Notes: a model not told the origin generated them from the letters alone. Shown: positions 6,699 through 22,379, counted from the stretch's first letter. The stretch is 64,000 bases of DNA from Escherichia coli (GCF_048403405.1 NZ_CP183129.1); one strand, 5' to 3'. A program made the numbers and translations.

Positions 6699-8970
6699 GG
6701 AAAACTCCCCAGTGTTGCAGCGATGCCAGTGCCTGCTGTTCGAGTTGTTGATGATGTGCAATGGCTTGCGGTGGACAATGCAACGGCATTTGCAGCGCTG
6801 AAACGGGAAGCTGTGCGAGCTGGTAATGCTCAAGCACCTGATGCGCCAGCGTCCCGCGTTCTCGTGGTGGTAGCCAGGCCATCGCCGCGCGTAAATCGGG
6901 CAGGGCGTTAATAAAATCGTCGTCACTCAGTTGATTTAAATGACTACTGAAACCGGCGATAAATGCCGGCTGACAGGCCAGTTGATGGCGGGCCAGCGCC
7001 AGCAAACCGTGCAGCGCTTCGCCGGATTGTGCCGGGGATAATTGCGCCAGCATTGTCAGCGCCGCTTCGGCACTGGCGTTGGGATGTTCCAGACGCATCA
7101 GTGCGCCAAGAGCCGCGCCGCGATCCAGCGCCGGGGCATGAATCGCCTGACTGCGGCGCTCCAGTAAGGCTACCGCCGCAGAAAGCGAAACGCCGGGTAA
7201 ATTAACGCCGCTATGTAGATCGCGCAGGATATGGCAAAGCGTCTGCCAGCTATGCAGGTGAGCGTGAAACTCCTTTTCATCTGGTCTGCCGTTAGATTCA
7301 CACAGCCACAGCGTGCGATCGATAGCCGCGCATAACGTCGTTTGTAATATCTGCGCGCCTTGCATACCGCTAATTTCATCCAGCCGCCATAAGGCATATA
7401 GCACTTCCAGCGCCTGGCCCATTTCGGCAAATTGATTTTCCTGGGCGATTAATAATGTGAGTTGCTCCAATAATTGTTGACTGAAGGACGCCAGACCCGC
7501 TAACGCCGCCTGGCTAAGACATGTGGTGATGCAGCCGATTCCACCCGCGTCCAGCATATCGGCTTCTAATTTATGGCGTGCGGCTTCCTGGAGTGTTGCA
7601 CCAAAGCAGGCGGCCTCAATCAATGCCGCATGTTGGCTAAGCGGGCGGGTTAATTTCCAGCGTTCTTCACCGTTGCCTGCAAGTGTCAGTGTACTTCCCT
7701 GCTGGCGCACAACCCCTGGGATCTCCAGTATTACCAGCCGATGTAACACCTGACTTTGCGCCAGTCCATTGGAGTTAAAGCGATTTAAGGTAAGCTCCGC
7801 CGGAAGAGAGATTGCGGTACGTTCCAGTTCGCAGGTGACATCTTTTGGCAGAGGCGGTTGTGGCGTAGAAGGGGCAAGTTTACCGAATCCGTCACCCGCT
7901 AATGTGTCTATCAACGTTAGCAGAATCGGATCGGTATCGGGATGAATAACGCCGCGATAGCTCCACGGCAACGGCGCATTCAGGGCTTCTTTAATCAGCG
8001 ATCCTGCTATGGCATCCAGCCAGTCAGTGCGTAACGGTAGTGTATGACCGCGCAACTGTGCCAGTGCCATCGCATGCAGATGAGCGGCAGCCATATCCGC
8101 GGTCGAAGCAGGCAACTTGTGCTGGCGCAAACGGGTGAGAACCGTTTTTAGCAGTTGTTCTCCCGCCTGCTGTAAGCCCCACTGCCAGCACCAGTTTTGC
8201 CAGACCGGGGCAGGCATTCCTGAAAGGTATCCTGCCAGCACATCAAGGCGCTTTTCACTGTAGGGGGTGAGATAACAACCTGTAACGGCATCATCCAGTA
8301 AGAGCAATTCTGGCGTGTTAATTACCTGCAGACATTCGCGCCACATTTTTGCCAGTGCCGGAGCGTGCCAGCCACCGCAGACAACTAACACGTCGCCATT
8401 ATTTTGCTGCATCGCCCATCCAATCCAGCGGGCCATAAAGGCTTCGCGCTGACGATTGAGAGCATCTCCGGGGGAGTCGCCCCGCAGTTGGGCAAAATAG
8501 TGCGCAAGTGCAGAGGGTAATGCAGTTTGCTGGCTTTCATCTTCGAACAAGTGATCCCACAGGGTGTCGCTGTTATCCATGCGGGTGGCACGCAGCAGCA
8601 AGGTCTGGCTTTCCTCTTGCGTATCAGGCGAATCGTCCTCTTCTTCACTCTGCGCCCAGCAAGGCAAATCGATGAAGTAAGTTTGTGCCTGAATACGACG
8701 AGCGGCTTGTAGCGCCTGCCACTCCGGCGAAAATTCAGCAAATGGCGTCCAGGCACCACGCCCGGGGGCCGCACCGTCCTGATACTGGCAATAACTGTAA
8801 ATAGCTACCGGAAGCTGGTGAGCTAACAACAGTTCGTCTACCCGGTCATTAAAATCAGCCGGGCCTTCAATCAACACGTATCGTGGCCGCTGGCTTTCGA
8901 TTAACGATTTCACCAGCCGGGCGCAGGCCGGACTATGATGCCGGATGCCGACAATTAACGGCTCGCTCAT
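6691..8970 (-). CDS. yehM: uncharacterised protein YehM
   Basis: ORF 6691..9111 trimmed to the ATG at 8970 (MSEPLIVGIRHHS..., 759 aa); operon position between yehL and yehP. Confidence 0.8.
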   Translation of the reverse strand: MSEPLIVGIRHHSPACARLVKSLIESQRPRYVLIEGPADFNDRVDELLLAHQLPVAIYSYCQYQDGAAPGRGAWTPFAEFSPEWQALQAARRIQAQTYFIDLPCWAQSEEEDDSPDTQEESQTLLLRATRMDNSDTLWDHLFEDESQQTALPSALAHYFAQLRGDSPGDALNRQREAFMARWIGWAMQQNNGDVLVVCGGWHAPALAKMWRECLQVINTPELLLLDDAVTGCYLTPYSEKRLDVLAGYLSGMPAPVWQNWCWQWGLQQAGEQLLKTVLTRLRQHKLPASTADMAAAHLHAMALAQLRGHTLPLRTDWLDAIAGSLIKEALNAPLPWSYRGVIHPDTDPILLTLIDTLAGDGFGKLAPSTPQPPLPKDVTCELERTAISLPAELTLNRFNSNGLAQSQVLHRLVILEIPGVVRQQGSTLTLAGNGEERWKLTRPLSQHAALIEAACFGATLQEAARHKLEADMLDAGGIGCITTCLSQAALAGLASFSQQLLEQLTLLIAQENQFAEMGQALEVLYALWRLDEISGMQGAQILQTTLCAAIDRTLWLCESNGRPDEKEFHAHLHSWQTLCHILRDLHSGVNLPGVSLSAAVALLERRSQAIHAPALDRGAALGALMRLEHPNASAEAALTMLAQLSPAQSGEALHGLLALARHQLACQPAFIAGFSSHLNQLSDDDFINALPDLRAAMAWLPPRERGTLAHQVLEHYQLAQLPVSALQMPLHCPPQAIAHHQQLEQQALASLQHWGVFHV

Positions 8971-8980
8971 GCATCTTTCC

Positions 8981-10069
8981 TCACGGCAGGCGGTGGCGAG
9001 CTTGATAATAAGCCTGCCAGTGAGCTTCTTTATGTGTGGCGACGCGCTGTTCGAAGTAACGGCGCAGACGCGCGCGATCTTCTTCGTTATCTTTGACGAT
9101 GGTTCCGGCAATACAGTCCACCAGGTCGGCAGGCTCCCCCGCGCGATTCGCTAAAAACCAGGCGCGGACACCCACAGCATGGGCCACGTTAACGGCTTCA
9201 GCGGTGGACATAATCGCTGTCAGTGTATCCATTGACGTTTTCTTTTCGCCGTTGGCACGCAGATCGCGGAACGTGCGCACCAGTAATTCCAGTACCGCGT
9301 CAGGCACTTTATGCGGAATACCGCTATGGGCCAGCAAACGCGCCGAAGCACTGGCAACCAGTTCCAGCTCCTGGGCGAAATCCATAATCGGAAAGACAGT
9401 TTCAAAATCGAAGCGACGCTTTAGCGCAGCACTCATTTCATTGACGCCGCGATCGCGGGTATTGGCAGTGGCAATAATATTAAAGCCTTCCCGCGCATAG
9501 AGCTGACTGGCTTCACCAGTGAGTTCCGGCACCGTCATTACCCTGTCAGAAAGCATACCTAACAGACAGTCTTGTACTTCCAGCGGTGTACGCGTTATCT
9601 CTTCAAAACGGACGATTTTGCCGTCGCGCATTCCCTGGTAAAGCGGGGCAGGGACCAGCGCTTCCGTTGATGGACCATGATTGATAAGCAGAGCGTAGTT
9701 CCAGCCGTACTTGATTTGATCTTCGGTGGTAGATGCGCCGCCCTGGATGGTTAACCCGGCATCGCCGCTAATAGCGGTTGCCAGTAATTCAGACAGGAGA
9801 GATTTTGCGGTGCCAGGTTCCCCCACCAACATCAAACCGCGCCCGGTGGCAAGAGTGACTAACATACGTTCGACAGCGGAGGGACTAATCACCACTTTAC
9901 GGCTAATATTTTGCGCGCTATCGCCAAGGATAAAAGCACGGGCCGCAGGCAAACTTAACTGCCAACCGGGCGGGCAAGGTGCGTTATCATTTTGTTTTAA
10001 TTTTGCCAGTTCATCGGCGTATAACACAGCAGCAGGCGGACGCTGCAGATGATTATTCTGCGGTGACAT
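8981..10069 (-). CDS. yehL: MoxR-like AAA+ ATPase YehL
   Basis: ORF 8981..10135 trimmed to the ATG at 10069 (MSPQNNHLQ..., 362 aa). Walker A GEPGTAKS; Walker B-like IVRFEE. Confidence 0.85.
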   Translation of the reverse strand: MSPQNNHLQRPPAAVLYADELAKLKQNDNAPCPPGWQLSLPAARAFILGDSAQNISRKVVISPSAVERMLVTLATGRGLMLVGEPGTAKSLLSELLATAISGDAGLTIQGGASTTEDQIKYGWNYALLINHGPSTEALVPAPLYQGMRDGKIVRFEEITRTPLEVQDCLLGMLSDRVMTVPELTGEASQLYAREGFNIIATANTRDRGVNEMSAALKRRFDFETVFPIMDFAQELELVASASARLLAHSGIPHKVPDAVLELLVRTFRDLRANGEKKTSMDTLTAIMSTAEAVNVAHAVGVRAWFLANRAGEPADLVDCIAGTIVKDNEEDRARLRRYFEQRVATHKEAHWQAYYQARHRLP

Positions 10070-10180: not shown

Positions 10181-10204
10181 AAAAAAACCTGCTGGTGAGG
10201 CAGG
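10181..10204 (-). terminator. rho-independent terminator of the OrzO-like sRNA
   Basis: Hairpin cctgc-tggtgag-gcagg (10188-10204) flanked on the plus strand by aaaaaaa (10181-10187), i.e. a 7-U tract after the hairpin on the minus strand. Confidence 0.65.
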
Positions 10205-10263
10205 TTCTTTTATTTACTATTTTCAGGCCCAACACCGCAGCCTGTGCAACATCGTGTTCCAAC
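10181..10263 (-). ncRNA. orzO: OrzO-like antisense sRNA (type I antitoxin), divergent from the zorO-like toxin gene
   Basis: Minus-strand promoter TTGCAA (10293-10298), 17-nt spacer, TATAAT (10270-10275); roughly 85-nt transcript ending at the terminator. Its 5' region is the reverse complement (19/20) of a leader segment of the downstream toxin mRNA. Confidence 0.6.
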
Positions 10264-10501: not shown

Positions 10502-10591
10502 ATGGACACGCTGACACAAAAGTTAACCGTGCTCATTGCCGTACTGGAGCTATTAGTGGCTCTGTTACGGTTGATTGATTTGTTGAAGTAA
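10502..10591 (+). CDS. zorO: 29-aa hydrophobic type I toxin, ZorO-like
   Basis: Not in the ORF track (below its size cut-off). ATG at 10502 with AGGAG SD at 10492-10496; peptide MDTLTQKLTVLIAVLELLVALLRLIDLLK; roughly 175-nt leader; matches my recollection of ZorO from EHEC. Confidence 0.7.
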   Translation: MDTLTQKLTVLIAVLELLVALLRLIDLLK

Positions 10592-10644: not shown

Positions 10645-10965
10645 CTATTTTTCTATTTCTTGGTTGAATATATTCTGTAGTTCGCGATTAAAAATGGCTA
10701 TTACCGTTTCTGGTGATTCGCCCCGTAATTTTCGCTCATCAATAAACTCATCTCTTATATAAATCAACGCATCATTTATTAGCGGGTCGACATCCTCTCG
10801 ATCACGTTGATGAAATGTTGGATGTAGCCGGAATCGCTCCAGTCGGTAGACGGAACCTGTAAATAATTCAGAGCATTTATGGATCTCAAGTCTGAAGGAA
10901 AACGGATCTTCAGGTACAGGGACCTCATAATCGTAAATAGCAACCAGCTCTTTTTGCACGATCAT
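10645..10965 (-). CDS. yehK: small conserved hypothetical protein (YehK-like)
   Basis: 106-aa ORF 60 nt downstream of yehI on the same strand; size and position match recalled yehK. Confidence 0.55.
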   Translation of the reverse strand: MIVQKELVAIYDYEVPVPEDPFSFRLEIHKCSELFTGSVYRLERFRLHPTFHQRDREDVDPLINDALIYIRDEFIDERKLRGESPETVIAIFNRELQNIFNQEIEK

Positions 10966-11025
10966 CGCTTTTCCCGGTGGCAGGTCGTGTTAATAACGGG
11001 CAGTCGCATCACTGCCCGCTGTGTT

Positions 11026-14000
11026 TTAATGGAAAATGACGTCGGGTGCGCTTAACGCTTCACTCAAATCAAACACATCAAGTTCGGCAAAAGTGACAGA
11101 TTTATTGTCACGGTATACATGAAGAGAACGGAAGCTCATTAGCGCTTTGCTATCAACATTGTAGTGGTTAAAACCGGATGAAAACTTAAGGACCAGCCGG
11201 TACTCGCCCAGGTCATAGACAAATGCATTCTCATAGCCTGACTCCCAGCCTTTGTATCGCATTCCCATAAGTTGCCCAACGGTAGCAGATTTACCTTCCC
11301 AGCGATTCAAACTATTACTGGCTGACTCGTCAGGCGTGAGCAGTACTGTGCGCCGTGCCAATTGGCGAAAAGGCGGCATAATTTCGTAATCGGCAAAAAG
11401 CTGTGCAAACTCACTGCGCATTTCTGCTGCCATTTCTAACGGGTGGGCAATGCCAATCAGAGCATCGGCAGGCAGGTCAATTGGCTCATCTTGCTCATTG
11501 CAGAACTCCCCCTCAGCGGCCACACGAAAGGCGTTGAGTAAACGACGCGGTTCATTTGCCGGATAAACACCCCATATTAATCGCTGAGTAACCAGACGGG
11601 TAAAGGGATGATTAACAAACAGAGAATGAAAATCTGCCAGCGACCAGCGTCGGGTGGTGCGCAGGGCAGTTTCAAGACGCGGGAGCAGGTTTTTGCTCAC
11701 CTGAGTGGCATCTTTTTTTAGCCCTTTTAGTCGGGCCAGTGCCTCGGGTGCTTTCAGTTGATCGTCATCGGCGCGCAACCGGGGAACGCTTTTCTGGCGA
11801 ACGTTTTGCTGATCAAAGATAACCGGGTTAAGGTTTTCATCGAAGCGAACGGTAAATTGCCGTGGACCAAAATCAAAAATCAACGCCTGCGGATCATCAA
11901 GACCCAGTGTTGGGACTAATCTGTCCGCTAACTGTTCCTGGCTTAGCCCTCGATTTTCTGCGACCACCTGAAGAAATTCCGCCGCGTTATCACGTAAGGG
12001 GCGGGATTTCGCCCGTTGCGATATATGATGCAGCTGTATCAGTGCCATATCATTATTCATCTGAGTAAGTATGTTCAGGCCGCTGACGGCACGGGCAGAT
12101 TTGCCTTCCTGTGGCCAGGCAAGGATCTGTGTCGTCAGATCCCGTGCCGTGCTTTCGTCGCCAAAGAGACTTAACGCCAGAAATGCCCAGTTGTCTTTTG
12201 CGGGAGCACCAGCTTGTTGCCACGCGGTGAAAAGATCCCAGGCAAAAGCTGCCAGCGTTTGCGGCTGGCAGAAAGTTTTCAGTTGTTCCAGTCCGCTATA
12301 AAAACGTCCGCCCTGGGTAAAGCGCAGCATTTCGCCGATAATTTCCAGTGCGTCATCGGTAACAGGCTGATTATTCGTGATAAGGCGCGGCCTGGACCAC
12401 ATTGCCGGCTGCCAGAAATCAGGGGCTTTTGGAATGCGTGTCGGGTAAATCTCTATTGGACTCTGTTTAAGTAAATGCTCCAGGGCAGGCCATACATCTG
12501 TACGCTGCCAGCGGTTTGCCGCGGTTTGCAGCAATTCACCATGTCCCTGTTCGTAAAGTAAACGTAGGGCAAGTAATGCAGCTTCGCTATTATCGCTGGA
12601 TTTGGTGAAGACAAGAGGGATAAGTGCAGTAGCCGTATGTTCCGGCCATTGTAAAATCCACTGGCGAGCCAGATCACGCTGCGCCGCGAAACGTCGCCAG
12701 ACGCGGGCAACGGGCAGGGCCAGTTCTGTTGCGCCAAAATTTAAAATTAACGGAAATGTTTCTTTTGGACGATATGAAAAAGCCAACAGCAGACCTGGTA
12801 GAGCATCCAATCCGAAGATACTGAGAAAATAGTCCTCACCCGCGAACAGATGCTTTTTCTCATTGATACGTAGCCAGAAAGTCAAAGCCATCTCACGCGG
12901 CAACTGTGCCAATAAATACAGGTTCCAGATACTCTTTTCCCGACGATAGCGTGAGTAGCTGTCATTTTCCCATATGTTAATTAACACTTCTACGTGACCG
13001 CTGCGAAGCGCCTGTTCTGCTAATTGTGCTTCCGGGGAGTTCCAGCCATTCAGGATCTCTTCAACCCGCCCCTGGTAGTAATGCCACTGAACAATGAGTG
13101 AATTGCGTGCAGCATCCAGTTTTCCGGGGAGTATATAATTCAGAAACAGCCATACATCATCTCCAAAACCCAGCTCCTGTAGTACAACTCGTCCACTTTT
13201 ATGTTCCATGCGTTCCGCAAGAGATTCCGTGCTGAAATAACGGGCAGACTCAGTGGCGGCAAGCCTCTCTCGTTCGCCTGGTTGCCAGTAAACTTGCGGC
13301 GTTAATTCGAACGGTGCCAAATCAAGACGTGGAACTGTCATTTTTTTCTTACTACGCCACGGTGGTGAAACGAGGATTTCAGGCATTTGGCTGTTATCGG
13401 TGCTATCAATAACCGTTTTAGGCGGTGCCGATAAATAACTATTCAGCACTGACCGGGCTTGAGTACTTAACCACGGCATCACCTCTTCTGCCAGTTGTGG
13501 CTGCGATGCCATCAGCGTTTGTAACAGCGTACGCCAGTATTCATCACGTGCTTTTTGCTGTGCAGGCAGCTTTTTGTCTTCGATGATTGGATAACCAGGG
13601 CGCGTAGGTGGTTCTTTTAGCGCCAGCAGTTCTGCCAGTGCGGCAAGCGTCGCATGGGGGAAATTTTTACTGTATTTAGCTACACGTTGCAGGCTGGGTT
13701 TGTTTTTATCAGCAACTAACAGCAGGGTGCGGATGACCTGCGGATGGTTAATTTGTACCAGCAGACTGCCGCAATCTTCTTTATGGGCATACATTGCCAG
13801 GCGTGGAACGGCTGCCAGTCCTTGTTCGCGCAAAAGGGCAGCGCAGGCCGCGTAGCCGAAGTGGTTTTCATGCGACATGTAGCTGGCTTCCCGATCGCTA
13901 AATATATCCTGGCTCCAGTAGCGTTCGAGTTTTCTCACCGCTCTGGGGTCAATAGCAACAACTTTTAACCACTCCTTAGAATGAAAATGAGTCCACGGGC

Positions 14001-14658
14001 ATTCAAGGCTTACCAACTCATTGGCGATTTCTGGTTTTTCCGGGAGGATCAGAGCAATAAAAGGGCGGCGAACTTTGGTTATTCCTGGCAGTGCGGCAAT
14101 GAGTTTGTCGGCGCAACGCTGCCAGCTGCTTTCCTCTGCCAGAGAGAGATGCTTACGCAGTCGGAGATCGAATTCGTTATAGGTTTCTGATCGATAACCA
14201 TAGCCATAATCCTCGTTCTGATACTGCAATGTCACTAGCAGAGGATCACTTTCATAACATCGTGTAATAAACTGGCGTGCAATCACCACCTCAGTCGCAT
14301 ATTCCAGTCCCTCTTGTTGGACGATTTCGTCGAGCAACTGTTGGCTATCATTTTGCGCGATACAGGCTAGCGCCGCCATTGTCCGGGCCGGAACTGAGGG
14401 TTTGTGTTCGCCAATCAAGTTGATGGCCTGCGTAATGGCCGACTGCCACTCCAGTGAAAAATTTTCATAACGCCAGACAATGTTTTTTTTCTTCTCAGCT
14501 TTTTGTAGCAATTCATCACCCAGTGTCTGGATGAGGCTTTCAGTGATAACAGGCACCGGTTCGCCCGGCCAACTGCGATGGCTGAGCGGCGTTTTGCCTT
14601 TTTTATATTTCAGTTCCACTTGGGCGTTATCCGCCAGCCACGGTAATTCCTTGTCCAT
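11026..14658 (-). CDS. yehI: DUF4132-family giant protein YehI (1210 aa)
   Basis: Full ORF from the track. C-terminal region shares motifs with the two upstream paralogs (DFGPRQFTV, HPLEM..FAQLFADYEIMPPFRQL); no N-terminal WGR domain. Confidence 0.85.
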   Translation of the reverse strand: MDKELPWLADNAQVELKYKKGKTPLSHRSWPGEPVPVITESLIQTLGDELLQKAEKKKNIVWRYENFSLEWQSAITQAINLIGEHKPSVPARTMAALACIAQNDSQQLLDEIVQQEGLEYATEVVIARQFITRCYESDPLLVTLQYQNEDYGYGYRSETYNEFDLRLRKHLSLAEESSWQRCADKLIAALPGITKVRRPFIALILPEKPEIANELVSLECPWTHFHSKEWLKVVAIDPRAVRKLERYWSQDIFSDREASYMSHENHFGYAACAALLREQGLAAVPRLAMYAHKEDCGSLLVQINHPQVIRTLLLVADKNKPSLQRVAKYSKNFPHATLAALAELLALKEPPTRPGYPIIEDKKLPAQQKARDEYWRTLLQTLMASQPQLAEEVMPWLSTQARSVLNSYLSAPPKTVIDSTDNSQMPEILVSPPWRSKKKMTVPRLDLAPFELTPQVYWQPGERERLAATESARYFSTESLAERMEHKSGRVVLQELGFGDDVWLFLNYILPGKLDAARNSLIVQWHYYQGRVEEILNGWNSPEAQLAEQALRSGHVEVLINIWENDSYSRYRREKSIWNLYLLAQLPREMALTFWLRINEKKHLFAGEDYFLSIFGLDALPGLLLAFSYRPKETFPLILNFGATELALPVARVWRRFAAQRDLARQWILQWPEHTATALIPLVFTKSSDNSEAALLALRLLYEQGHGELLQTAANRWQRTDVWPALEHLLKQSPIEIYPTRIPKAPDFWQPAMWSRPRLITNNQPVTDDALEIIGEMLRFTQGGRFYSGLEQLKTFCQPQTLAAFAWDLFTAWQQAGAPAKDNWAFLALSLFGDESTARDLTTQILAWPQEGKSARAVSGLNILTQMNNDMALIQLHHISQRAKSRPLRDNAAEFLQVVAENRGLSQEQLADRLVPTLGLDDPQALIFDFGPRQFTVRFDENLNPVIFDQQNVRQKSVPRLRADDDQLKAPEALARLKGLKKDATQVSKNLLPRLETALRTTRRWSLADFHSLFVNHPFTRLVTQRLIWGVYPANEPRRLLNAFRVAAEGEFCNEQDEPIDLPADALIGIAHPLEMAAEMRSEFAQLFADYEIMPPFRQLARRTVLLTPDESASNSLNRWEGKSATVGQLMGMRYKGWESGYENAFVYDLGEYRLVLKFSSGFNHYNVDSKALMSFRSLHVYRDNKSVTFAELDVFDLSEALSAPDVIFH

Positions 14659-14667
14659 GCTCTTTCC

Positions 14668-17600
14668 TTATTCAAACAGGGCTTCAATATCGTTAATGAG
14701 TTCGCTGGCGGTGATGTCGTCGAGCACGGAGAACTGCGCTTCCTGAGTTGAATTACTCCCCCAGCCATAGCTTTCCGCTTTGCCTTCCCATAGCCACAGC
14801 TTGCTTAAGACCTGCTCAGCGCTAAGATCGGCTGGTGACATACCCACCGCAAAACCTTCGTCGATTTCCATGATTAACGACCAGCGACCGAGAGGTTTGA
14901 TCATCCATCCGATCCAGCCTCCATCCTGTGGTTCGCCCTTTATCCAGCCTTTATTTGCCAGCCCCATGACCCGGCCGCTCGGGCATTTTCTGCCTGCCCA
15001 GCGGGTCAGTTCGCTGGCGTTGCGCTCGGCTTCTGTCAGGGCGTAACTGTTACGTTCAAGCTGACGGAACGGTGGTAGCAGTTCGTAGTCGGCAAAAAGC
15101 TGACCAAAGGCGACAGCATCCGTCGGTGATATTTCCAGAACGTGAGGAATGCCAACAGAGATATCGCCTTCCTGCAAGGTGAAAAGATCATCGTCAGCGG
15201 TGCTGTAGCTGTTATCTTCCGCCACCCTAAAGCACGCCTGTAGCTGGTTTTCGGCGCTATAAACGCCCCAAATCAGACGGCGGGTTAAGTGACGAACCAG
15301 CGGATGCTCAACCAGGAAGAGCTGAAAGTTTTCCGGCGACCAGCGGCGGCGCAGGCACATGGCGGATTCCAGCCTTGCTACCTGCTGGGCGGCGACGGTA
15401 CGCGCATCTTTTTTCAGCAATTTGTAGCGGTTAACAGCATCGTTTGCCTGTGATTCATCATCGCTTTTATTGGGTTTAGGTAAGTCTTTCAGGCGGCTGC
15501 CGGAAACATCGCGCACAAACGGTTTTAAGGTTTCATCAAAGCTGACGGTGAACTGCCGTGGGCCAAAATCCAGCAGCAGCGAACCGTTATCATCCAGACC
15601 GAGAGCCGGTGCTAACCGATCTTCAAGCTCCGCTACCGTCAGTTCGCGACTTTCGGCAATGTCGGCAATTTTCTCTTTCGCCCGCTCCTGTAATGCTTTG
15701 AATTTCAGTTTCTGGGCAATGCCGTTAAGCTGCATCAGGGCGATATCACTACTGATAGCGGCGAGGATATCCAGCCCGACGGTGGCGCGTTTATGCTGGG
15801 ATTCACCAGGCCAGGCGCGTATTAATGGCGTCAGTTTGCGGGCGGTGTCATCGTTACCGAGAACGCCTAACGCAGTGAACGCCCAACTCTCTTTCGACGG
15901 CGCGCCAGCGGTCTGCCAGGCGGTAAACAGATCCCAGGCAAATTCAGCCAGTGAGTCGGCGGTACAGGCATCTTTCACCTGCAATAATCCCGGATACAGC
16001 GCCTCCTCCTGATGGAAGCGGAGCATTTCACCGAGGTGCTGGAGTGCGCTATCGGGCAGTGATTGGGCATTTGCTTTTAATACCGGGCGGGTCCAGATCG
16101 ATGGCTGATAAAAGGCCGGAAGAGTGGGGATTTTTGTCGGGTGATTATCTAAGGGATCGAGCGCAAGCATAGCGTTCACCGCATCTGTTACTTCCGGCTG
16201 GTTATAACGCCGGGCGATTTCTTGCAGTAATGGTTGATGACCGTTTTCGGTAAGCATACGCAATGCAGCGCGGGCGTTATCCTGTGCTTCACCGGCTTTG
16301 CCGAGCGCCGCAGACAGCAGGCCGGTAATGGCGTGTTCCGGGTATTTCAGCAGCCAGGTGCGGGCGTCTTGTCGTAGGGTTTTGAGTTTGTTGAAGGCGC
16401 GGGCGACGGCAGGTGCCAGCTCACTCGCTGCGAAGTAATTCGTTATGGGCAAGGCTTCCTGTGGATAGCGTGCAAGTGAGTTTACTAACCCAGGTAATCC
16501 TTTGAGTCCAAAATGTAACATGGCGTATTCGGTATCGGTATGCGGAGATAGAGTAAGGGCATTCCATGCTCTTACTGCTTTCTCCAGCGGCAATGTTGTC
16601 AAAATCCCCAAATGCCAATAATGCCCGGTAGGTGAATGAAACACCTTAAATTCACTTATTAAAGTTGAATAATCTTCATTTAGCCATGCCTCAACTACCG
16701 CTTCGGGAGCTTTAATATATGTACCAGCGATCCGTCGTTGAAAACCCATCCTTGCCAACAGATTGGCAGTACTTTCTTCATGACTAACCGTGATGTGTTT
16801 TGAATACCAGATATATTTCGCCAAAAGTTGATTACTGATTTCTTCTGTCAGATAACTGATTGGCTCAATACCTAATGGTGCTAAATCAAGCACTGGAATC
16901 GGCGATTTTTTCTTTTTCGAAAGCCATGGTGGGGAGACTACTATGGCCGGCAGTAGATCGGCGCTGGCATGGTTTGAGGGCTGTGTCAGTTGTTGCTGGC
17001 ATGATTTCAGCACTGCAACTGCGGGTGTCGAAAGCCAGGGAATGACCTGTTCTGCTAGTGTCGGTTGCGAGATAAGCATCGTCATTAGCATAATGCGCCA
17101 ACTATTCTCTTCTTTTTGCACTAGAAGTTCCGCCAGTGCTGCCAGTGCTGCGTGTGGGAACGCAGCGCAGGCTTTCGTCATTCGATCGTGACAGCGTTTA
17201 GTATGCCCTGCTACACGTATAAGCAGTGTTAATGCGAACGGATGATTGATATGACGCAACACATCGGCGCAGTAGTCACTTGCGACATAGGGAGCAAATC
17301 GGGGCAGGGCCGCAACACCTTGCTCCTGTAATACGGTGGCTGACCATATCGCACCACAATAGTAATCATCAAAAATGGCATATGGCTCGTGATATTTTTC
17401 TAATGAGGCAAGAATGTGCTCATCAGTCGCCACTATTTTTAGCCACTCCAGCGAGGGTAATTTCTTTTGCCCCAGTAGACGCTGGGCAATTTCATGTGCA
17501 ATTTCTGGTTTTTCGGGCAATAACAAAGCAATTAATGGTTGCCGCCATTCTGGAATATGTGGAACTGCGGCAATAAGTTTTTGTGCACATTTTTGCCAGA

Positions 17601-18462
17601 GAGACTCTTCCGCCAGTGATAAATGTTTACGTAGGCGTAATTCAAAGCTGGAATATTGCTGCAAATAATCAGGTGAAATGCCAGACGACAGGAAAACAAT
17701 ATTATTGTTGACATAATCCCATTCAATAGATATTTGTTGAAGATGTATTATTACATCAGTAGCATATTCCAGACCGCCTTCCTGAATAATCTGATCCATA
17801 ACATCCGCACGCTCTTTATATCTCGTGCAGTGCAGTTCAAGTGCCGCGAGTACAGCCATTACCGGTGATGGTAATTTTGTCGTTTTCGGGCTGTTAATCA
17901 GATCGATCGCCTGAGCGATGAAGTTTTGCCACTCTAAAGTACAGGCGCTGAAGTCAAATGTAGCTGTTTTGTTATCCCGTTGCGACACGCCACAGGCTAA
18001 GCGACGTAACTGGGTTAATTTATCTACAGGTGTAACAGGATCTCCGGGAAAGCGGCGATGGCTTAAGGTGGTGGGTACGACTTCAAGCGGAAAAACGACA
18101 GCAATATCTTTTGCCAGCCACGGTAAAATAACGTCTGTATTTTTGTCAGCCACGTAGAATTCTGGTGTAACTGAGGGCTGTTCCTGAATGATGGTAGAAA
18201 AGTCAGATAATTCGAGAGATTTCGTTACCGTTCGAGTATGTTTCGATGTAGCATTCTCCGCATGTTCCACATACCCCTTTTTCGTTTTCTCCGCAATCAG
18301 CTTGAGTTCCGCTTTTTCCGCCGCCGCAGCATCTGCAAAGCTTTTTACCTGACTTTGCCCGTTGGTGCCGACTTTGCCCCAACTGATATTCAGTTCGTTT
18401 CCCTGCTGCTCCACCGCCCAGAATTTATGTGATTTTTCGTCCTGATAAATATAGGTTTTCAT
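14668..18462 (-). CDS. MolR-like giant protein, N-terminal WGR domain plus DUF4132 (1264 aa)
   Basis: N-terminus MKTYIYQDEKSHKFWAVEQQGNELNISWGKVGTNGQ (WGR signature); C-terminal DUF4132-like region; 9-nt gap to yehI. Confidence 0.85.
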   Translation of the reverse strand: MKTYIYQDEKSHKFWAVEQQGNELNISWGKVGTNGQSQVKSFADAAAAEKAELKLIAEKTKKGYVEHAENATSKHTRTVTKSLELSDFSTIIQEQPSVTPEFYVADKNTDVILPWLAKDIAVVFPLEVVPTTLSHRRFPGDPVTPVDKLTQLRRLACGVSQRDNKTATFDFSACTLEWQNFIAQAIDLINSPKTTKLPSPVMAVLAALELHCTRYKERADVMDQIIQEGGLEYATDVIIHLQQISIEWDYVNNNIVFLSSGISPDYLQQYSSFELRLRKHLSLAEESLWQKCAQKLIAAVPHIPEWRQPLIALLLPEKPEIAHEIAQRLLGQKKLPSLEWLKIVATDEHILASLEKYHEPYAIFDDYYCGAIWSATVLQEQGVAALPRFAPYVASDYCADVLRHINHPFALTLLIRVAGHTKRCHDRMTKACAAFPHAALAALAELLVQKEENSWRIMLMTMLISQPTLAEQVIPWLSTPAVAVLKSCQQQLTQPSNHASADLLPAIVVSPPWLSKKKKSPIPVLDLAPLGIEPISYLTEEISNQLLAKYIWYSKHITVSHEESTANLLARMGFQRRIAGTYIKAPEAVVEAWLNEDYSTLISEFKVFHSPTGHYWHLGILTTLPLEKAVRAWNALTLSPHTDTEYAMLHFGLKGLPGLVNSLARYPQEALPITNYFAASELAPAVARAFNKLKTLRQDARTWLLKYPEHAITGLLSAALGKAGEAQDNARAALRMLTENGHQPLLQEIARRYNQPEVTDAVNAMLALDPLDNHPTKIPTLPAFYQPSIWTRPVLKANAQSLPDSALQHLGEMLRFHQEEALYPGLLQVKDACTADSLAEFAWDLFTAWQTAGAPSKESWAFTALGVLGNDDTARKLTPLIRAWPGESQHKRATVGLDILAAISSDIALMQLNGIAQKLKFKALQERAKEKIADIAESRELTVAELEDRLAPALGLDDNGSLLLDFGPRQFTVSFDETLKPFVRDVSGSRLKDLPKPNKSDDESQANDAVNRYKLLKKDARTVAAQQVARLESAMCLRRRWSPENFQLFLVEHPLVRHLTRRLIWGVYSAENQLQACFRVAEDNSYSTADDDLFTLQEGDISVGIPHVLEISPTDAVAFGQLFADYELLPPFRQLERNSYALTEAERNASELTRWAGRKCPSGRVMGLANKGWIKGEPQDGGWIGWMIKPLGRWSLIMEIDEGFAVGMSPADLSAEQVLSKLWLWEGKAESYGWGSNSTQEAQFSVLDDITASELINDIEALFE

Positions 18463-18474
18463 TGCAAAGTCCTT

Positions 18475-21400
18475 TTAATCAAAAAGTGATTCGATGTCGT
18501 TAATGAGTTCGCTGGCGGTGATGGCATCAAGCGCGGAGAACGTGAGCGAGGGCTGTGTACTGTAGCGTTCCCCTGGTGAAGTGATTTTTACGCTTTCAAC
18601 AGGTAGCAGGTCGCTATACCCCGTTTCGCCATAAATTAATGAAAAATGTTCTGTTTCAAGTTCGAGAGCGCCATAAGGGGTAGATTTGCGCATCGCATAG
18701 ACGCTGCCGCTTTCTTCCAGACGTTGCCAGCCTCGACGTTCCAGCCCGACAATGCGCCCGGCCTGGCAAAGACGTCCTTGCCAGCGTATCAATTCATGGG
18801 TATCACGTTCATTATCAGTAAGGTGGTAATAACCACGATCGAGTTGGCGAAAGGGAGGAAGCTTTTCGTAATCAGCATAAATTTGCCCAAATGCAGTGGC
18901 GGATTCAGGAGATATTTCCAGCACATGCGGTATACCGATGTTTCCTGCTGGCAGCGTGAATAACTCATCCTGCGCATCGCTGTAAGTGCTGTCTTCTGCG
19001 ACCCGGAAGCAGGCGATCAGCGTGTTTTCCTCAGTATATACCCCCCATAACACCCGTCGGGTTAAGTGACGTACCAGCGGATGCTCCACCAGAAACAGGC
19101 GGAACTGCTCTGCCGTCCAGCGTCTGCGCTGGCACATATCCTGCTCCAGACGATCAATCTGCTGGCTGGCAATGGCGTGCACATCTTTCTTCAATTGTTT
19201 GAAGAGGTTAACGGAGTCAGTTGCCAGTGTTTGATCATCGCTCTGATTTGGTTTGGGTAAATCTTTCAGGACTTTGCCGTTTGCATCGTGCACTACAGGT
19301 TTTAAGGTTTCGTCAAAACCAACGGTGAATTGACGTGGGCCGAAATCCAGTATCAGCGAGCCACTGTTATCAAGCCCTAAATCTGGAGCCAGGCGGTCTT
19401 CCAGTTCAGCCATAGTCAGCCCACGGTTTTCAGCAACTATGTTGATTTTCTCGCGGGCATGTTCCTGTAATGCTTTGAATTTAATTTTTCGCGCGATGCC
19501 ATTAAGCAGCATTAGCGCAACATCGCTGCCAATATCAGCTAATACATCCAGCCCGTAAACCGCGCGTTTATGCTGGGATTCACCCGGCCAGGCACGGATA
19601 AGCGGGGTTAATTTACGTGCGGTGTCGTCATTGCCTAAAATCCCAAGCGAAGTAAATGCCCAGTTTTCTTTTGCGGGTGCGCCAGCTTCTGTCCATGCCG
19701 TGTAGAGATCCCAGCCAAAGTCAGCCAGTGATTCGTGGGTGAAGGTCTCTTTGATGGTCGCCAGCCCAGCGTAGGAGGTAATGTCGCGTGGAAAGCTCAA
19801 CATTGTGCCCAGGTGGCGCATAGCGTCATCTGGCAGAGGCAGGTTGTTACTTTTAAGCCGTGGTCTGCGCCATAAGGTGAACTGATAAAAGCCGGGCAGT
19901 GGGGCGATTTTAGCGGGATATTCTTCCAGCGGATCGCTATCGAACAATGTTGCCAGCGCAGCTAAAACATCAGGTTGGTTGTATCTCCGGCCGATTTCTT
20001 CAATCGTTTCTCGCTGGTTTAATTTCACTAGCAGGCGGAATGCCTGGCGGGCATATTCCCGATTTTGGCACGGTTTGCCCAGCGCCAAAGGCAGTAGCCC
20101 GGCGGCGGCATGGCGCGGGTTATTTGCCAGCCAATTAATGGCATCCTTGTAAGCCATTTTTTTCTGTAATCGCTGCGCCATTGGTAAGGCTAGTTCACTG
20201 GCCCCAATAAAGAGGGTGAATATCCACAGTCGTTGATGATCTCGTTGCAAGCAGGTCATAAACGCAGGAATGGCCGTACTACCAAAAACTGCCAGAATCT
20301 CTTTCTCACCTGAATATCGCTCCTCAATGATTATTTGGTTGAGAAATGAAATCGCCTGTTGTCCCGGTAAGTAACAAAGCGCAGATAGATTCCAGCTTTT
20401 GTTGGCATTGTTGTGATATTTCGCAAACTCAGCTTTTAGTGCTGGAAAATCAAAGCGCAACAAGGCATCAACAGCGCTTTGCGGTATATATTTTTTTTCA
20501 TGTAAGTCATCTTCGCAATGCAGCCATTCATTAAAACCTAATTGCCAAAGGATTTGTTGTTCTGGTGTAAAAGGAATGAAAGATGTCTCCCAGCTTTCTT
20601 TTTCAATTAGTGGCAGGTCGGTAAATAAGGTTTGCTGTGATGACTGATATTGCGCGATTTCACTGAATCTGGATATGTCAGTATGACTGATTAACTCTGT
20701 AATTCCTGGCGTGATGTCAGTGACTGCAGGGATGGGAAGCACCGGTAAATCAAATACGGGTATTACATTCGTTTTCTTATTTATTACCCACGGTGGAGCG
20801 ACAAACAGCTCCGGCAACATATCCGCAGTGGCGTATTCACATTCTTCAGCGACTAACTGAGTACGACATTCAGATAAGATGCCTGCCGCTTTAGCATTAA
20901 CCCAGGGAATGACGTCAGTGACTAAATCTGGCGTGGCGGTAATCAGTTTGACAAGCGCTTTACGCCACTGTGCATCTTCATGTATTGCCAGTAAAGTTGC
21001 ATAAGCGGCAAGAGCCGCAGCGGGATGTTTTTGACAGGCTTTGCTTAAGTATTCCAGGTGCTTTTTCTTGCCAATTACACCGAGGATCAGAATTTGAATC
21101 GCATCCGGGTGATTCGTTTTCCATAGCCATTTGACAAGATCTTCAGTCTCGCTGATGCGCTCGAAGAGATAAGTGGGATTGTCAGAATGCTCTTCCGTAA
21201 ACTCAAGAAGTATCCGGCTTACACCGCGCACCCCATTATTTGCCAGCAACATTGCCAGATAAGCGCGAAAATCATGATACAACGGTGGGAAGTCGTATTT
21301 TTCTGCTGTAGTCAGAGCGGCGTCATCGGTTACCACCAGTCTTAACCAGGTCATCGCCGGAACGTTTTGATCTGCATAACGTAGCGCCATAGCATTGGCA

Positions 21401-22272
21401 ATATCCGGGCGTTCAGGGAGCAGTAACGCCGCAAAAGGTTGCCGTGCTGGGGATAGCGAGGGAATAGCAGCGAGAACTTTATCTACACAGCGTTGCCACT
21501 CATCTTCTGAAGCGAGTGAAAGATGATGACATAGACGTTGATGCCAGTTCGGTAGTGATTCTGCTTTGAGATCAGGGGGAATAATGGTGGTGACGTCGGC
21601 TTTTACTGGTTTATATTTGAGTTGAAGAGCGAGAAGGGCGATTTCAACGGTAGTTTCCAGACCACAGCGAATGACTAAGTCATCGACCAGTTCATCTGTA
21701 GAGTAAGAGTTCCATAAATTCCAGAGCAATGCCGCATCAGATTGTATACTTCCTGTTTGTTGATTATTCAGAATTCGCCTTTGTAACTCGGCAAACGCCA
21801 GCTGCCAGTTTTCAGGATAAGAGCGGTAATTATTGTCGGGGTCATATGCCCTGGTGTTATTCGCGATGCGCTTCCATATTTGGCCATCTTTGTACAGATA
21901 ATTGATCTCTCTGGGGCGAGAGCGATGAGGAAAAGCAAATCGATTAATATCGCCAGTTACCGGAATGACTGCATCATCAGCCACCCATGGGCGTTTGTTT
22001 TTACTCTCAGGGGAGGTTTCAACTTCAGGAGTGGCTTTGGTGATGGGGGGGATATGCACGTTTGCTAAAGCATTTTCCACATAGCCTTTTTTCGTTTTCT
22101 CTGCGATCAGCTTAAGCTCCGCTTTTGCCGCTGCCGCAGCATCCGCAAAACTTTTTACCTGGTTTTGCCCTTTGGTGCCAACTTTTCCCCAACAGATATG
22201 CAACTCGTTTCCCTGTTGCTCCACCGCCCAGAATTTATGTGATTTTTCGTCCTGAAAGATAAAGTGCCTCAT
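18475..22272 (-). CDS. MolR-like giant protein, N-terminal WGR domain plus DUF4132 (1265 aa), second paralog
   Basis: N-terminus MRHFIFQDEKSHKFWAVEQQGNELHICWGKVGTKGQ, near-identical to the adjacent paralog over about 60 aa; conserved C-terminal block; 12-nt gap to the next gene. Confidence 0.85.
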   Translation of the reverse strand: MRHFIFQDEKSHKFWAVEQQGNELHICWGKVGTKGQNQVKSFADAAAAAKAELKLIAEKTKKGYVENALANVHIPPITKATPEVETSPESKNKRPWVADDAVIPVTGDINRFAFPHRSRPREINYLYKDGQIWKRIANNTRAYDPDNNYRSYPENWQLAFAELQRRILNNQQTGSIQSDAALLWNLWNSYSTDELVDDLVIRCGLETTVEIALLALQLKYKPVKADVTTIIPPDLKAESLPNWHQRLCHHLSLASEDEWQRCVDKVLAAIPSLSPARQPFAALLLPERPDIANAMALRYADQNVPAMTWLRLVVTDDAALTTAEKYDFPPLYHDFRAYLAMLLANNGVRGVSRILLEFTEEHSDNPTYLFERISETEDLVKWLWKTNHPDAIQILILGVIGKKKHLEYLSKACQKHPAAALAAYATLLAIHEDAQWRKALVKLITATPDLVTDVIPWVNAKAAGILSECRTQLVAEECEYATADMLPELFVAPPWVINKKTNVIPVFDLPVLPIPAVTDITPGITELISHTDISRFSEIAQYQSSQQTLFTDLPLIEKESWETSFIPFTPEQQILWQLGFNEWLHCEDDLHEKKYIPQSAVDALLRFDFPALKAEFAKYHNNANKSWNLSALCYLPGQQAISFLNQIIIEERYSGEKEILAVFGSTAIPAFMTCLQRDHQRLWIFTLFIGASELALPMAQRLQKKMAYKDAINWLANNPRHAAAGLLPLALGKPCQNREYARQAFRLLVKLNQRETIEEIGRRYNQPDVLAALATLFDSDPLEEYPAKIAPLPGFYQFTLWRRPRLKSNNLPLPDDAMRHLGTMLSFPRDITSYAGLATIKETFTHESLADFGWDLYTAWTEAGAPAKENWAFTSLGILGNDDTARKLTPLIRAWPGESQHKRAVYGLDVLADIGSDVALMLLNGIARKIKFKALQEHAREKINIVAENRGLTMAELEDRLAPDLGLDNSGSLILDFGPRQFTVGFDETLKPVVHDANGKVLKDLPKPNQSDDQTLATDSVNLFKQLKKDVHAIASQQIDRLEQDMCQRRRWTAEQFRLFLVEHPLVRHLTRRVLWGVYTEENTLIACFRVAEDSTYSDAQDELFTLPAGNIGIPHVLEISPESATAFGQIYADYEKLPPFRQLDRGYYHLTDNERDTHELIRWQGRLCQAGRIVGLERRGWQRLEESGSVYAMRKSTPYGALELETEHFSLIYGETGYSDLLPVESVKITSPGERYSTQPSLTFSALDAITASELINDIESLFD

Positions 22273-22379
22273 TCTGCATCCCTGTAATTTTATCCAGTTG
22301 AATGCTGATGCTACCAGTATTTATGCGGGTTAGAGAGAGACAAAATCGCAAGAAAACAACTTTAGGAATTTATAAAGAA

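What the first reader, a model, noticed from the sequence alone, without database searches (positions are those of the whole stretch)
11026..22272. Tandem array of three giant DUF4132 paralogs, two carrying an N-terminal WGR domain, both apparently intact
Seen in sequence: three consecutive co-directional ORFs of 1265, 1264 and 1210 aa separated by only 12 and 9 nt. The two upstream copies begin with nearly identical WGR-type N-termini (FQDEKSHKFWAVEQQGNEL..WGKVGT.GQ.QVKSFADAAAA.KAELKLIAEKTKKGYVE), and their DNA is also near-identical across this roughly 180-nt stretch while the central regions have diverged, which suggests gene conversion or selection on the WGR module. All three share the C-terminal DUF4132 block. 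Established knowledge (from memory): in K-12 the corresponding molR is fragmented into pseudogenes and only yehI is intact; the WGR domain is a nucleic-acid-binding module best known from PARP enzymes. Inference: an intact, duplicated WGR-DUF4132 system of unknown function.
Basis: partly seen in the sequence, partly recalled or inferred. Interest (0 to 1): 0.65.

Follow-up and report, generated by a model that had tools for sequence, protein, structure and literature searches.

The report
E. coli molR–yehI DUF4132 gene array
Three large neighbouring E. coli genes of unknown function are real, intact, ancient paralogues: this is the already catalogued, DNA-damage-inducible molR/yehI locus, which belongs to a widespread five-gene ATPase system that nobody has characterised.

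Summary
Three co-directional intact ORFs of 1265, 1264 and 1210 aa lie 12 and 9 nt apart. The first two carry WGR and DUF4132 domains; the third (yehI) carries DUF4132 only.

It is not a new duplication or an assembly artefact:
- The window is E. coli.
- Gene A occurs in 1643 of 5426 complete genomes, including ST131 and O157.
- Klebsiella spallanzanii has one-to-one orthologues of all three genes in the same order.

The common two-copy form (K-12 type) is a deletion derivative. Its junction lies inside the WGR-coding stretch, which A and B have homogenised by gene conversion.

The proteins have no enzyme fold. They consist of a WGR head, a disordered linker, a fast-evolving alpha-solenoid and a strongly conserved 520-aa C-terminal module.

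Across Proteobacteria, Myxococcota, Actinobacteria and Acidobacteria, one to six or more such genes sit directly upstream of yehL (MoxR AAA+), yehM (DUF5682), yehP (vWA) and yehQ (SWIM).

A LexA box lies 7 nt before gene A, and molR is a listed SOS gene. Deinococcus DUF4132 and WGR proteins are also damage-induced.

Best reading: these are damage-induced, interchangeable adaptor or sensor subunits of the YehLMPQ remodeller. The function is untested. The locus is catalogued and of moderate interest.

The parts
22280..22299 (-). LexA (SOS) box AACTGGATAAAATTACAGGG, 7 nt upstream of the gene A start codon
22380..22403 (-). metG intrinsic terminator, the upstream boundary of the operon
   Evidence: 10-bp stem with 6 GC pairs followed by a T-run.
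18475..22272 (-). Gene A: WGR + alpha-solenoid + DUF4132 protein, 1265 aa (RefSeq WP_001215556.1)
   Evidence: The central region is present in 1643 of 5426 E. coli genomes. Orthologous to the first Klebsiella spallanzanii copy.
22070..22257 (-). Gene A WGR-coding stretch (nt 16-203), homogenised with gene B; a conversion tract and the deletion crossover zone
   Evidence: There are no fixed A/B differences between nt 16 and 167, and polymorphisms are shared between the paralogues.
18727..19278 (-). Gene A DUF4132 domain (residues 999-1182)
   Evidence: Pfam PF13569, 8.9e-48.
14668..18462 (-). Gene B: WGR + alpha-solenoid + DUF4132 protein, 1264 aa; orthologue of K-12 molR (yehF/yehH) (WP_000860770.1)
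   Evidence: It is 92% nt identical to the K-12-type gene over its full length.
18260..18447 (-). Gene B WGR-coding stretch (nt 16-203), partner of the conversion tract
14671..16230 (-). Gene B conserved C-terminal module (residues 745-1264), which includes DUF4132 (988-1173; window 14944-15501)
   Evidence: 45-66% identity to family representatives, and 5878 clusters at 50% identity with E <= 1e-3. 30 invariant columns. AlphaFold pLDDT 93.6.
11026..14658 (-). Gene C = yehI: WGR-less DUF4132 protein, 1210 aa (DUF4132 at residues 954-1138; window 11245-11799)
   Evidence: Orthologous to the third Klebsiella spallanzanii copy.
10645..10965 (-). yehK, a small ORF (106 aa) that ends the A-B-C-yehK gene run; no homologue was found in the other 74 loci
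8981..10069 (-). yehL: MoxR-type AAA+ ATPase (Walker A GEPGTAKS)
   Evidence: AAA_5 genes follow DUF4132 genes in other phyla.
6691..8970 (-). yehM: DUF5682 protein
   Evidence: Pfam PF18934, 1.5e-96. Conserved synteny.
5562..6698 (-). yehP: vWA protein with an intact MIDAS motif (DQSGS...T...D)
   Evidence: Homologues match VWA_CoxE.
3565..5565 (-). yehQ: protein with two SWIM zinc fingers (CxC...CxH)
   Evidence: Pfam SWIM 9.7e-4, sequence, synteny.

Best explanation
A, B and C are the ancestral enterobacterial molR-like (A, B) and yehI (C) paralogues. They are non-enzymatic adaptor or sensor proteins with four parts:
- a WGR nucleic-acid-binding head (lost in C);
- a disordered linker;
- a fast-evolving alpha-solenoid;
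- a strongly conserved 520-aa C-terminal module containing DUF4132.

Together with yehK they form one tightly packed gene run, apparently an operon, behind a LexA box, so they are induced by DNA damage. They act as alternative target-recognition subunits of the machine encoded next door: YehL (MoxR AAA+ ATPase), YehM (DUF5682), YehP (vWA with MIDAS) and YehQ (SWIM).

Proposed sequence of events:
1. LexA cleavage de-represses A-B-C.
2. The WGR heads tether the proteins to broken, nicked or otherwise abnormal nucleic acid.
3. The variable solenoids bind different clients.
4. The invariant C-terminal module docks on the conserved YehM/P/Q core.
5. YehL ATP hydrolysis remodels or dismantles the bound complex.

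Shown here: gene structure, domains, folds, synteny, copy-number variation, conversion, purifying selection and the SOS box. Taken from the literature: LexA control, and damage induction in Deinococcus. Inferred: the adaptor role, nucleic-acid binding, docking and remodelling.
For: Architecture:
- WGR confirmed by HMM, by fold and by alignment to the PARP3 'RWGRVG' motif.
- The rest of the N-terminal 744 aa is helical repeats (pLDDT 88).
- The C-terminal module models at pLDDT 93.6 and has no enzyme-like neighbour.
- Only WGR and DUF4132 are detected in 79 family members.

One machine with a variable number of adaptors:
- In 36 loci with at least 7 kb on both sides, 27 carry all four of yehL, yehM, yehP and yehQ immediately downstream and co-directional, and 30 carry at least one.
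- Copy number is 1 in 50 loci and 2-6 in 21.
- The taxa span Gamma-, Beta- and Deltaproteobacteria, Myxococcota, Actinobacteria and Holophagales.

Variable versus conserved halves:
- Identity to family members is 17-37% in the N-terminal/central part and 45-66% in the C-terminal module.
- Between E. coli alleles, dN/dS is 0.3-0.6 centrally and 0.02-0.2 in the C-terminal module.

The genes are maintained:
- Whole-gene dN/dS is 0.12-0.30.
- One-to-one orthologues exist in Klebsiella.

The partner proteins look active:
- Walker A in YehL, MIDAS in YehP and SWIM motifs in YehQ are intact.

Link to DNA damage:
- The SOS box is at 22280-22299.
- molR is listed among genes with known SOS boxes (PMC6590174).
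- D. radiodurans DRA0166 (DUF4132) and DR2173 (WGR) are bound by DdrO and induced by mitomycin C in an IrrE-dependent way (PMC8533742).
Against: - No experiment links these proteins to YehLMPQ, to DNA or to any phenotype.
- In E. coli, yehK and a zor-orz toxin-antitoxin locus separate the array from yehL, so co-regulation with yehLMPQ is not shown.
- No E. coli-type LexA box was found upstream of 51 arrays in other taxa. SOS control may therefore be an Escherichia peculiarity.
- The genes are often inactivated: K-12 B, O157 A and B, APEC O1 yehI, and IS or transposon insertions. That argues against an important housekeeping repair role.
- The E. coli copies have W-G-K rather than W-G-R.
- Whether the giant proteins are adaptors or the clients of the ATPase cannot be told from sequence.
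Confidence: 0.45

Rival explanations
1. Anti-phage or anti-mobile-element conflict system. The paralogue arrays would be a diversifying repertoire of sensors for invader molecules. The MoxR-vWA pair would be the ATP-dependent switch, as proposed for the VMAP-type ternary systems. SOS induction would couple the system to prophage induction or to damage caused by invaders.
For: - Copy-number variation, with 1 to 6 or more copies.
- Deep and mosaic allelic lineages in E. coli: B alleles reach dS 0.7, with blocks at 71% nt identity or unalignable.
- Frequent pseudogenisation.
- A conceptual precedent in the MoxR-vWA ternary conflict systems (PMC7159879).
Against: - No PADLOC model matches any of the eight proteins.
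- No homologue in 50,697 phage records, and only 28 of 72,556 plasmid records, several of which are mislabelled chromosomes.
- The locus sits at a fixed position between the core genes metG and yehR/btsSR, not in an island.
- No window reaches dN/dS above 1.
- The neighbouring metG is also unusually diverse (dS 0.1-0.23), so the allelic depth may be regional.
- No recognisable effector (nuclease, protease, NADase) is present.
Confidence: 0.2
2. The giant DUF4132 proteins are the clients rather than the adaptors. By analogy with BchH/CobN in the chelatases, the AAA+/vWA pair would act on the ~1200-aa subunit itself, loading, unloading or activating something bound in its solenoid.
For: - The three-part logic (MoxR-class AAA+, vWA with MIDAS, and a 1200-1400-aa partner) resembles Mg- and Co-chelatase. 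This resemblance is from established knowledge and was not tested here.
- A nearly invariant C-terminal helix containing S-E could be a MIDAS ligand.
Against: - No CobN/Mg-chelatase Pfam match in 79 family members.
- The extra conserved partners DUF5682 and SWIM have no counterpart in chelatases.
- A WGR head is not expected on a metabolic client.
Confidence: 0.12
3. A classical MoxR-vWA maturation chaperone for a metalloenzyme, in line with the legacy name 'molybdate metabolism regulator'.
For: - The vWA protein matches VWA_CoxE, the family of the CO-dehydrogenase maturation factor.
- Characterised MoxR systems mature enzyme complexes (PMC3893208).
- The legacy molR genetics (from memory).
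Against: - No metalloenzyme or molybdenum gene is conserved next to the cassette in 71 loci.
- K-12 carries molR as a pseudogene yet makes molybdoenzymes (established knowledge).
- Molybdenum genes did not co-vary with DRA0166 in Deinococcus (PMC8533742).
- No regulator-type DNA-binding domain is present.
Confidence: 0.08
4. Decaying relics with no current function, or an assembly artefact.
For: Inactivated copies occur in K-12, O157 and APEC O1, and IS or transposon insertions are tolerated.
Against: - About 3.7-kb ORFs remain intact here and in many genomes.
- dN/dS is 0.12-0.30.
- Orthologues are retained in Klebsiella.
- The family has 5878 clusters at 50% identity.
- The identical arrangement is seen in over a thousand independent complete assemblies.
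Confidence: 0.05

Closest known systems
YehL subfamily of MoxR AAA+ ATPases, and MoxR-vWA chaperone pairs in general (RavA-ViaA, CbbQ-CbbO, NorQ-NorD, CoxD-CoxE)
   Same: - A MoxR-class AAA+ ATPase (YehL) is encoded with a vWA protein that has an intact MIDAS motif.
- YehL is one of the seven named MoxR subfamilies, and E. coli YehL is its type member (PMC3893208).
   Different: - No member of the YehL subfamily has been characterised.
- This cassette adds DUF5682, a SWIM protein and one to six or more WGR-DUF4132 giants.
- No enzyme client is encoded nearby.
MoxR-vWA-centred ternary conflict systems (VMAP, iSTAND, FtsH and beta-propeller types; Kaur et al. 2020, PMC7159879)
   Same: A MoxR-vWA core plus an additional large, variable component proposed to be the sensor. 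The regulatory logic is ATP-dependent.
   Different: - The third components differ: WGR-DUF4132, DUF5682 and SWIM are not among the four described types.
- No effector domains are fused to the vWA protein.
- The system is found in unicellular enterobacteria at a fixed chromosomal site.
WGR domain of PARP1/2/3 (DNA-break sensing)
   Different: There is no ADP-ribosyltransferase, helical-domain or zinc-finger module. The head is joined by a disordered linker to an alpha-solenoid. DNA binding is untested.
Deinococcus radiodurans DRA0166 (DUF4132) and DR2173 (WGR), members of the DdrO/IrrE radiation-desiccation regulon
   Same: They share the same Pfam domains and are induced by DNA damage (ChIP-seq and western blots after mitomycin C; PMC8533742). 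This parallels LexA control of E. coli molR.
   Different: The regulator is different (DdrO, not LexA). WGR and DUF4132 are on separate proteins. Their sequences and gene neighbours were not examined here.
Mg-chelatase and cobaltochelatase (BchI/BchD/BchH, CobS/CobT/CobN)
   Same: An AAA+ ATPase, a vWA/integrin-I subunit and a 1200-1400-aa partner subunit. This is an analogy from established knowledge.
   Different: No sequence match to CobN/BchH. The extra DUF5682 and SWIM partners and the WGR head have no counterpart. There are several paralogous large subunits.

Membership tests
Pfam WGR (PF05406) | HMM match above threshold, and the WGR fold | tested here: met
Pfam DUF4132 (PF13569) | Full-length HMM match | tested here: met
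   A 8.9e-48, B 3e-51 and C 1.2e-46, covering model positions 1-179 or 3-179 of 179.
YehL-type MoxR-vWA cassette | MoxR-class AAA+ ATPase with Walker A and Walker B motifs | tested here: met
   YehL has GEPGTAKS and VRFEE. Homologues carry Pfam AAA_5.
YehL-type MoxR-vWA cassette | vWA partner with a MIDAS motif (DxSxS...T...D) | tested here: met
   YehP has DQSGS, GGGTN and VSDF. Homologues match VWA_CoxE.
YehL-type MoxR-vWA cassette | Conserved co-directional synteny of DUF4132 gene(s), AAA_5, DUF5682, vWA and a SWIM-like gene across distant taxa | tested here: met
   27 of 36 fully flanked loci have all four partners.
E. coli LexA (SOS) regulon | SOS box (CTG-N10-CAG with an AT-rich spacer) in the promoter region | tested here: met
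E. coli LexA (SOS) regulon | LexA binding and damage-inducible, LexA-dependent transcription | not testable with these tools
   Literature only: molR is listed among LexA-regulated genes with a known SOS box (PMC6590174 Table 1).
Known anti-phage defence systems (PADLOC-DB v2) | A match of any component to a defence-system HMM | tested here: not met
   0 families for A, B, C, YehK, YehL, YehM, YehP and YehQ.
'MolR family transcriptional regulator' / 'molybdate metabolism regulator' (legacy annotation) | A regulator-type DNA-binding domain, or conserved linkage to molybdenum genes | tested here: not met
   Only WGR and DUF4132 were detected. No molybdenum genes are conserved in the neighbourhoods.
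PARP enzymes | ADP-ribosyltransferase catalytic domain | tested here: not met
SUKH / YugN-like / CdiI-type small binding domains | Significant fold match of the terminal alpha/beta domain | tested here: inconclusive
VMAP-type MoxR-vWA ternary conflict systems | Presence of a VMAP third component and effector domains on the vWA protein | not tested
   No VMAP profile was available. YehP is 378 aa with no extra domain, and the paper's four types do not include DUF4132, DUF5682 or SWIM.

The most novel reading that the evidence does not exclude
The cassette would be a widespread, uncharacterised surveillance machine for damaged or foreign nucleic acid. Arrays of WGR-headed alpha-solenoid adaptors would recognise different lesions or invader complexes and hand them to a MoxR-vWA-DUF5682-SWIM remodeller. 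That would make it a bacterial counterpart of PARP-style break sensing that works without ADP-ribosylation. It would have been recruited independently into the LexA regulon in Escherichia and the DdrO regulon in Deinococcus.
Probability: 0.25. Interest if true: 0.75.

Novelty: already known. Interest (0 to 1): 0.4.

Why it matters
molR has sat in lists of SOS genes for 25 years without a function. DUF4132 comprises thousands of protein clusters, and YehL is the only one of the two E. coli MoxR ATPases that remains unstudied.

Three points from this analysis turn an annotation oddity into a testable problem:
- The giant WGR-DUF4132 proteins are the variable-number partners of YehLMPQ across phyla.
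- Their variable and conserved halves are sharply separated.
- K-12 carries a degraded copy of the locus.

The practical consequence is that the right strain to study is one like this window's, with all eight genes intact, and not K-12. The right first assays are DNA-damage and phage challenge.

The conversion tract also explains how E. coli switches between the three-copy and two-copy states.

Tried and rejected
- PADLOC on all eight proteins gave no hits.
- NCBIfam matched only the WGR head, to a Leptospira WGR-LRR family far below its cut-off. For the partners it gave only weak GvpN/MadB matches for YehL.
- The search for homologous proteins with B returned only E. coli alleles, so it was no use for distant context.
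- Sequence searches of the PDB found nothing for the DUF4132 module (only a WGR match to 2ra8). YehM and YehQ as single sequences had no meaningful match: none for YehM, and only E = 2.8 hits for YehQ. A 25-sequence YehM profile gave only spurious coiled-coil matches.
- I tested the idea that YehM is a TraB/Tiki-like hydrolase, based on its GxRHH and CGGxH motifs. hhalign against E. coli YbaP aligned only one motif at probability 0.15%, so the idea is unsupported.
- I looked for positive selection between alleles and found no 60-codon window with dN/dS above 1.
- I looked for LexA boxes upstream of arrays in 51 other loci and found none.
- Literature searches for DUF4132, DUF5682, the yeh genes and WGR+MoxR+SWIM+vWA found no functional study. 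The Snider & Houry 2006 paper that defined the YehL subfamily is not held.
- The assembly-duplication reading is rejected.


Full report
**1. Observation**

The minus strand carries three uninterrupted ORFs:
- A: 18475-22272, 1265 aa
- B: 14668-18462, 1264 aa
- C: 11026-14658, 1210 aa

The gaps between them are 12 and 9 nt, and each gap contains a Shine-Dalgarno-like purine run.

Pfam finds the following:

| Gene | WGR | DUF4132 |
|---|---|---|
| A | 5-67 | 999-1182 |
| B | 7-69 | 988-1173 |
| C | none | 954-1138 |

Pairwise amino-acid identity is 47% (A-B), 41% (B-C) and 34% (A-C). The WGR-coding 5' stretch of A and B is 87.7% identical in DNA over nt 9-203. That is elevated but not near-identical. 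The last 66 nt of A and B are 82% identical.

**2. What and where it is**

The window is Escherichia coli. The 14.1 kb from yehK to apbC is 100% identical to strain 4621.

RefSeq annotates this gene order, with none of the eight genes flagged as a pseudogene: metG, DUF4132 protein, 'WGR and DUF4132 domain-containing protein', yehI, yehK, yehL (ATP-binding; MoxR), yehM (DUF5682), yehP (vWA), yehQ (SWIM).

MG1655 has only a fragmented B orthologue (yehF plus the yehH pseudogene) and an intact yehI.

The A-specific central 2.2 kb is found in 1643 of 5426 complete E. coli genomes. The alleles fall into four identity classes:
- 99% or more: 313 genomes
- 95-99%: 179
- 90-95%: 192
- 80-90%: 959, including ST131 and O157:H7

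A paper on ST131 already calls these three genes the 'DUF4132 region', because a blaCTX-M-15 transposon inserts there (PMC9334617).

**3. Age of the paralogues, conversion and deletion**

Klebsiella spallanzanii has three tandem copies in front of yehLMPQ. In a neighbour-joining tree of the C-terminal modules, each copy pairs one-to-one with E. coli A, B or C, at 67, 79 and 65% identity. The triplication therefore predates the split of the two genera. Erwinia and Serratia have one copy.

The conversion evidence comes from comparing two regions:

| Region | E. coli A vs E. coli B | E. coli B vs Klebsiella orthologue |
|---|---|---|
| nt 16-198 (WGR) | 85-91%, as close as alleles of one gene | 75% |
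| C-terminal 1560 nt | 67% | 73% |

Between nt 16 and 167 there are no fixed A/B differences, but many polymorphisms are shared. Third-codon-position identity is 80% there, against about 35% elsewhere. This pattern is concerted evolution by gene conversion, not protein-level constraint alone.

**4. Selection and decay**

Nei-Gojobori dN/dS between alleles:

| Gene | dN/dS |
|---|---|
| A | 0.20-0.26 |
| B | 0.14-0.30 |
| C | 0.12-0.26 |
| metG | 0.00-0.05 |

No 60-codon window exceeds 1. The N-terminal/central parts run at 0.3-0.6 and the C-terminal modules at 0.02-0.2.

Allelic lineages are deep. B reaches dS up to 0.7 and has mosaic blocks. However, metG itself shows dS of 0.1-0.23, so part of this depth is regional.

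Inactivated copies are common:
- O157: A has an internal stop and B is split.
- K-12: B is fragmented.
- APEC O1: yehI is frameshifted.
- IS4, IS1203 and IS1 insertions occur.

**5. Protein architecture**

AlphaFold models built with family alignments are confident.
- No enzyme fold or Pfam enzyme family appears in 79 family members.
- The C-terminal module is the conserved part, at 45-66% identity with 30 invariant columns. The N-terminal/central part is at 17-37%.
- The family is large: 5878 clusters at 50% identity. Of 105 full-length representatives, 91 start with WGR.

**6. The system it belongs to**

I examined gene neighbourhoods of distant homologues and 71 loci from a scan of one genome per species, using tblastn with the E. 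coli partner proteins.
- The same co-directional order recurs: [WGR-DUF4132] x N, AAA_5 (YehL), DUF5682 (YehM), VWA_CoxE (YehP), SWIM-like (YehQ).
- Of 36 loci with at least 7 kb on both sides, 27 have all four partners. The six with none are solo copies in Massilia genomes that carry the cassette elsewhere.
- N is 1 in 50 loci and 2-6 in 21. Massilia has arrays of at least six.
- YehL, YehP and YehQ in the window keep their Walker A, MIDAS and SWIM motifs. YehM is a full-length DUF5682 protein.
- No component matches PADLOC.
- No phage record carries the module, and only 28 of 72,556 plasmid records do.

**7. Regulation**

Seven nt upstream of the A start codon lies AACTGGATAAAATTACAGGG, at 22280-22299. 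It is a CTG-N10-CAG box with an AT-rich spacer.
- It is the only such site in the 64 kb.
- The bare CTG-N10-CAG core occurs 27 times in the window, so the core alone is not diagnostic.

molR is listed among E. coli LexA-regulated genes with a known SOS box, in PMC6590174 Table 1, which is based on Fernandez de Henestrosa 2000 and Courcelle 2001.

Independently, in Deinococcus radiodurans the DUF4132 protein DRA0166 and the WGR protein DR2173 have DdrO sites. They are induced by mitomycin C in an IrrE-dependent manner (PMC8533742).

I found no E. coli-type LexA box upstream of 51 arrays in other taxa.

**8. Mechanism**

The best-supported reading is that A, B and C are damage-induced, interchangeable adaptor or sensor subunits of the YehLMPQ MoxR-vWA machine:
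- a nucleic-acid-binding WGR head;
- a variable solenoid for client recognition;
- a conserved C-terminal module for docking;
- remodelling driven by the YehL ATPase.

The general logic for MoxR-vWA pairs is that the vWA captures a peptide and the ATPase releases it remodelled. This follows PMC7159879 and PMC3893208.

Shown here: anatomy, synteny, conservation pattern and the SOS box. Inferred: binding, docking and remodelling. Confidence is 0.45.

Rivals:
- a conflict or defence system with a diversifying sensor repertoire (0.2);
- the giants as clients, as in the chelatases (0.12);
- metalloenzyme maturation or the legacy 'molybdate regulator' role (0.08);
- relic or artefact (0.05 or less).

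**9. Comparison and novelty**

The closest named kind is the YehL subfamily of MoxR ATPases. This locus is its type example, and no member of the subfamily has been characterised. It differs from RavA-ViaA, CbbQO, NorQD and CoxDE, and from the four MoxR-vWA ternary conflict systems, in its partners: WGR-DUF4132, DUF5682 and SWIM.

As a sequence feature the array is already known. It is annotated, it has been reported as a 'DUF4132 region', and molR is a textbook SOS gene. This analysis adds:
- the ancestral three-copy state;
- the conversion and deletion mechanism;
- the split between variable and conserved halves;
- the phylum-wide pattern of one machine with a variable number of adaptors.

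Interest is moderate (0.4). This is an unsolved but catalogued system and is now easier to test.

**10. Dead ends**

These are listed under 'tried and rejected'. The main ones:
- No structural or profile link gives the DUF4132 module or DUF5682 a biochemical activity.
- There is no sign of positive selection.
- There is no defence-database match.
- The LexA box is not conserved outside Escherichia.

Noticed in passing
window 10181-10256 (-) and 10502-10591 (+): A zor-orz type I toxin-antitoxin locus lies between yehK and yehL. It comprises an OrzO-P antitoxin sRNA (Rfam RF02083, 101 bits) and a divergent 29-codon zorO-like ORF (MDTLTQKLTVLIAVLELLVALLRLIDLLK). There is one copy here. The literature reports it absent from MG1655 and present in tandem in O157 (PMC2887945).
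   Followed up: partly
window 3565-5565 versus L082 15601-17445 (MG1655): yehQ is 666 aa in this strain but 614 aa in K-12 MG1655, so the K-12 copy looks C-terminally shortened. Together with the molR pseudogene, this suggests that K-12 carries a degraded version of the whole system.
   Followed up: no
window 22413-24446 (metG) and the whole yeh neighbourhood: metG alleles differ by dS 0.1-0.23 between E. coli strains. B alleles contain blocks at about 71% nt identity or that cannot be aligned. The region is a high-diversity, mosaic zone, so allelic depth alone is not evidence of diversifying selection on the DUF4132 genes.
   Followed up: partly
L035, L036, L053, L062, L065 (Massilia spp.): Arrays of four to at least six tandem WGR-DUF4132 paralogues, plus solo copies elsewhere in the same genomes. 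This is the most extreme expansion of the family seen here.
   Followed up: partly
window 6691-8970 (yehM), alignment A3: DUF5682 has invariant His, Cys, Glu and Asp positions: G8-x-R10-H11, P14-x-C16-A17, E35-G36-P37-x-D39, H51, D101, D139, E143 and C198-G199-G200-x-H202. This looks like a metal or active site. A TraB/Tiki-like relationship was tested against YbaP and was not supported (hhalign probability 0.15%).
   Followed up: partly
window 18475-18540 and 14668-14733 (3' ends of A and B): The last 66 nt of A and B are 82% identical, against 64% for the corresponding Klebsiella paralogues. The encoded C-terminal helix (…SELINDIE.LF[DE]) contains a Ser-Glu pair that is nearly invariant across the family. 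This could be a second conversion tract or a docking motif.
   Followed up: partly
plasmid collection hits H71, H72, H78 and others: Several E. coli 'plasmid' records that carry metG and DUF4132 genes are 4-5 Mb long, so they are chromosomes mislabelled as plasmids. A few 180-440-kb records also carry this chromosomal segment.
   Followed up: no
window 10997-11018: A GC-rich 8-bp-stem hairpin (CGGGCAGT…ACTGCCCG) sits between the yehI stop codon and the yehK start codon, with no clear T-run on the coding strand. It could be an attenuator or an mRNA-stability element within the operon.
   Followed up: no
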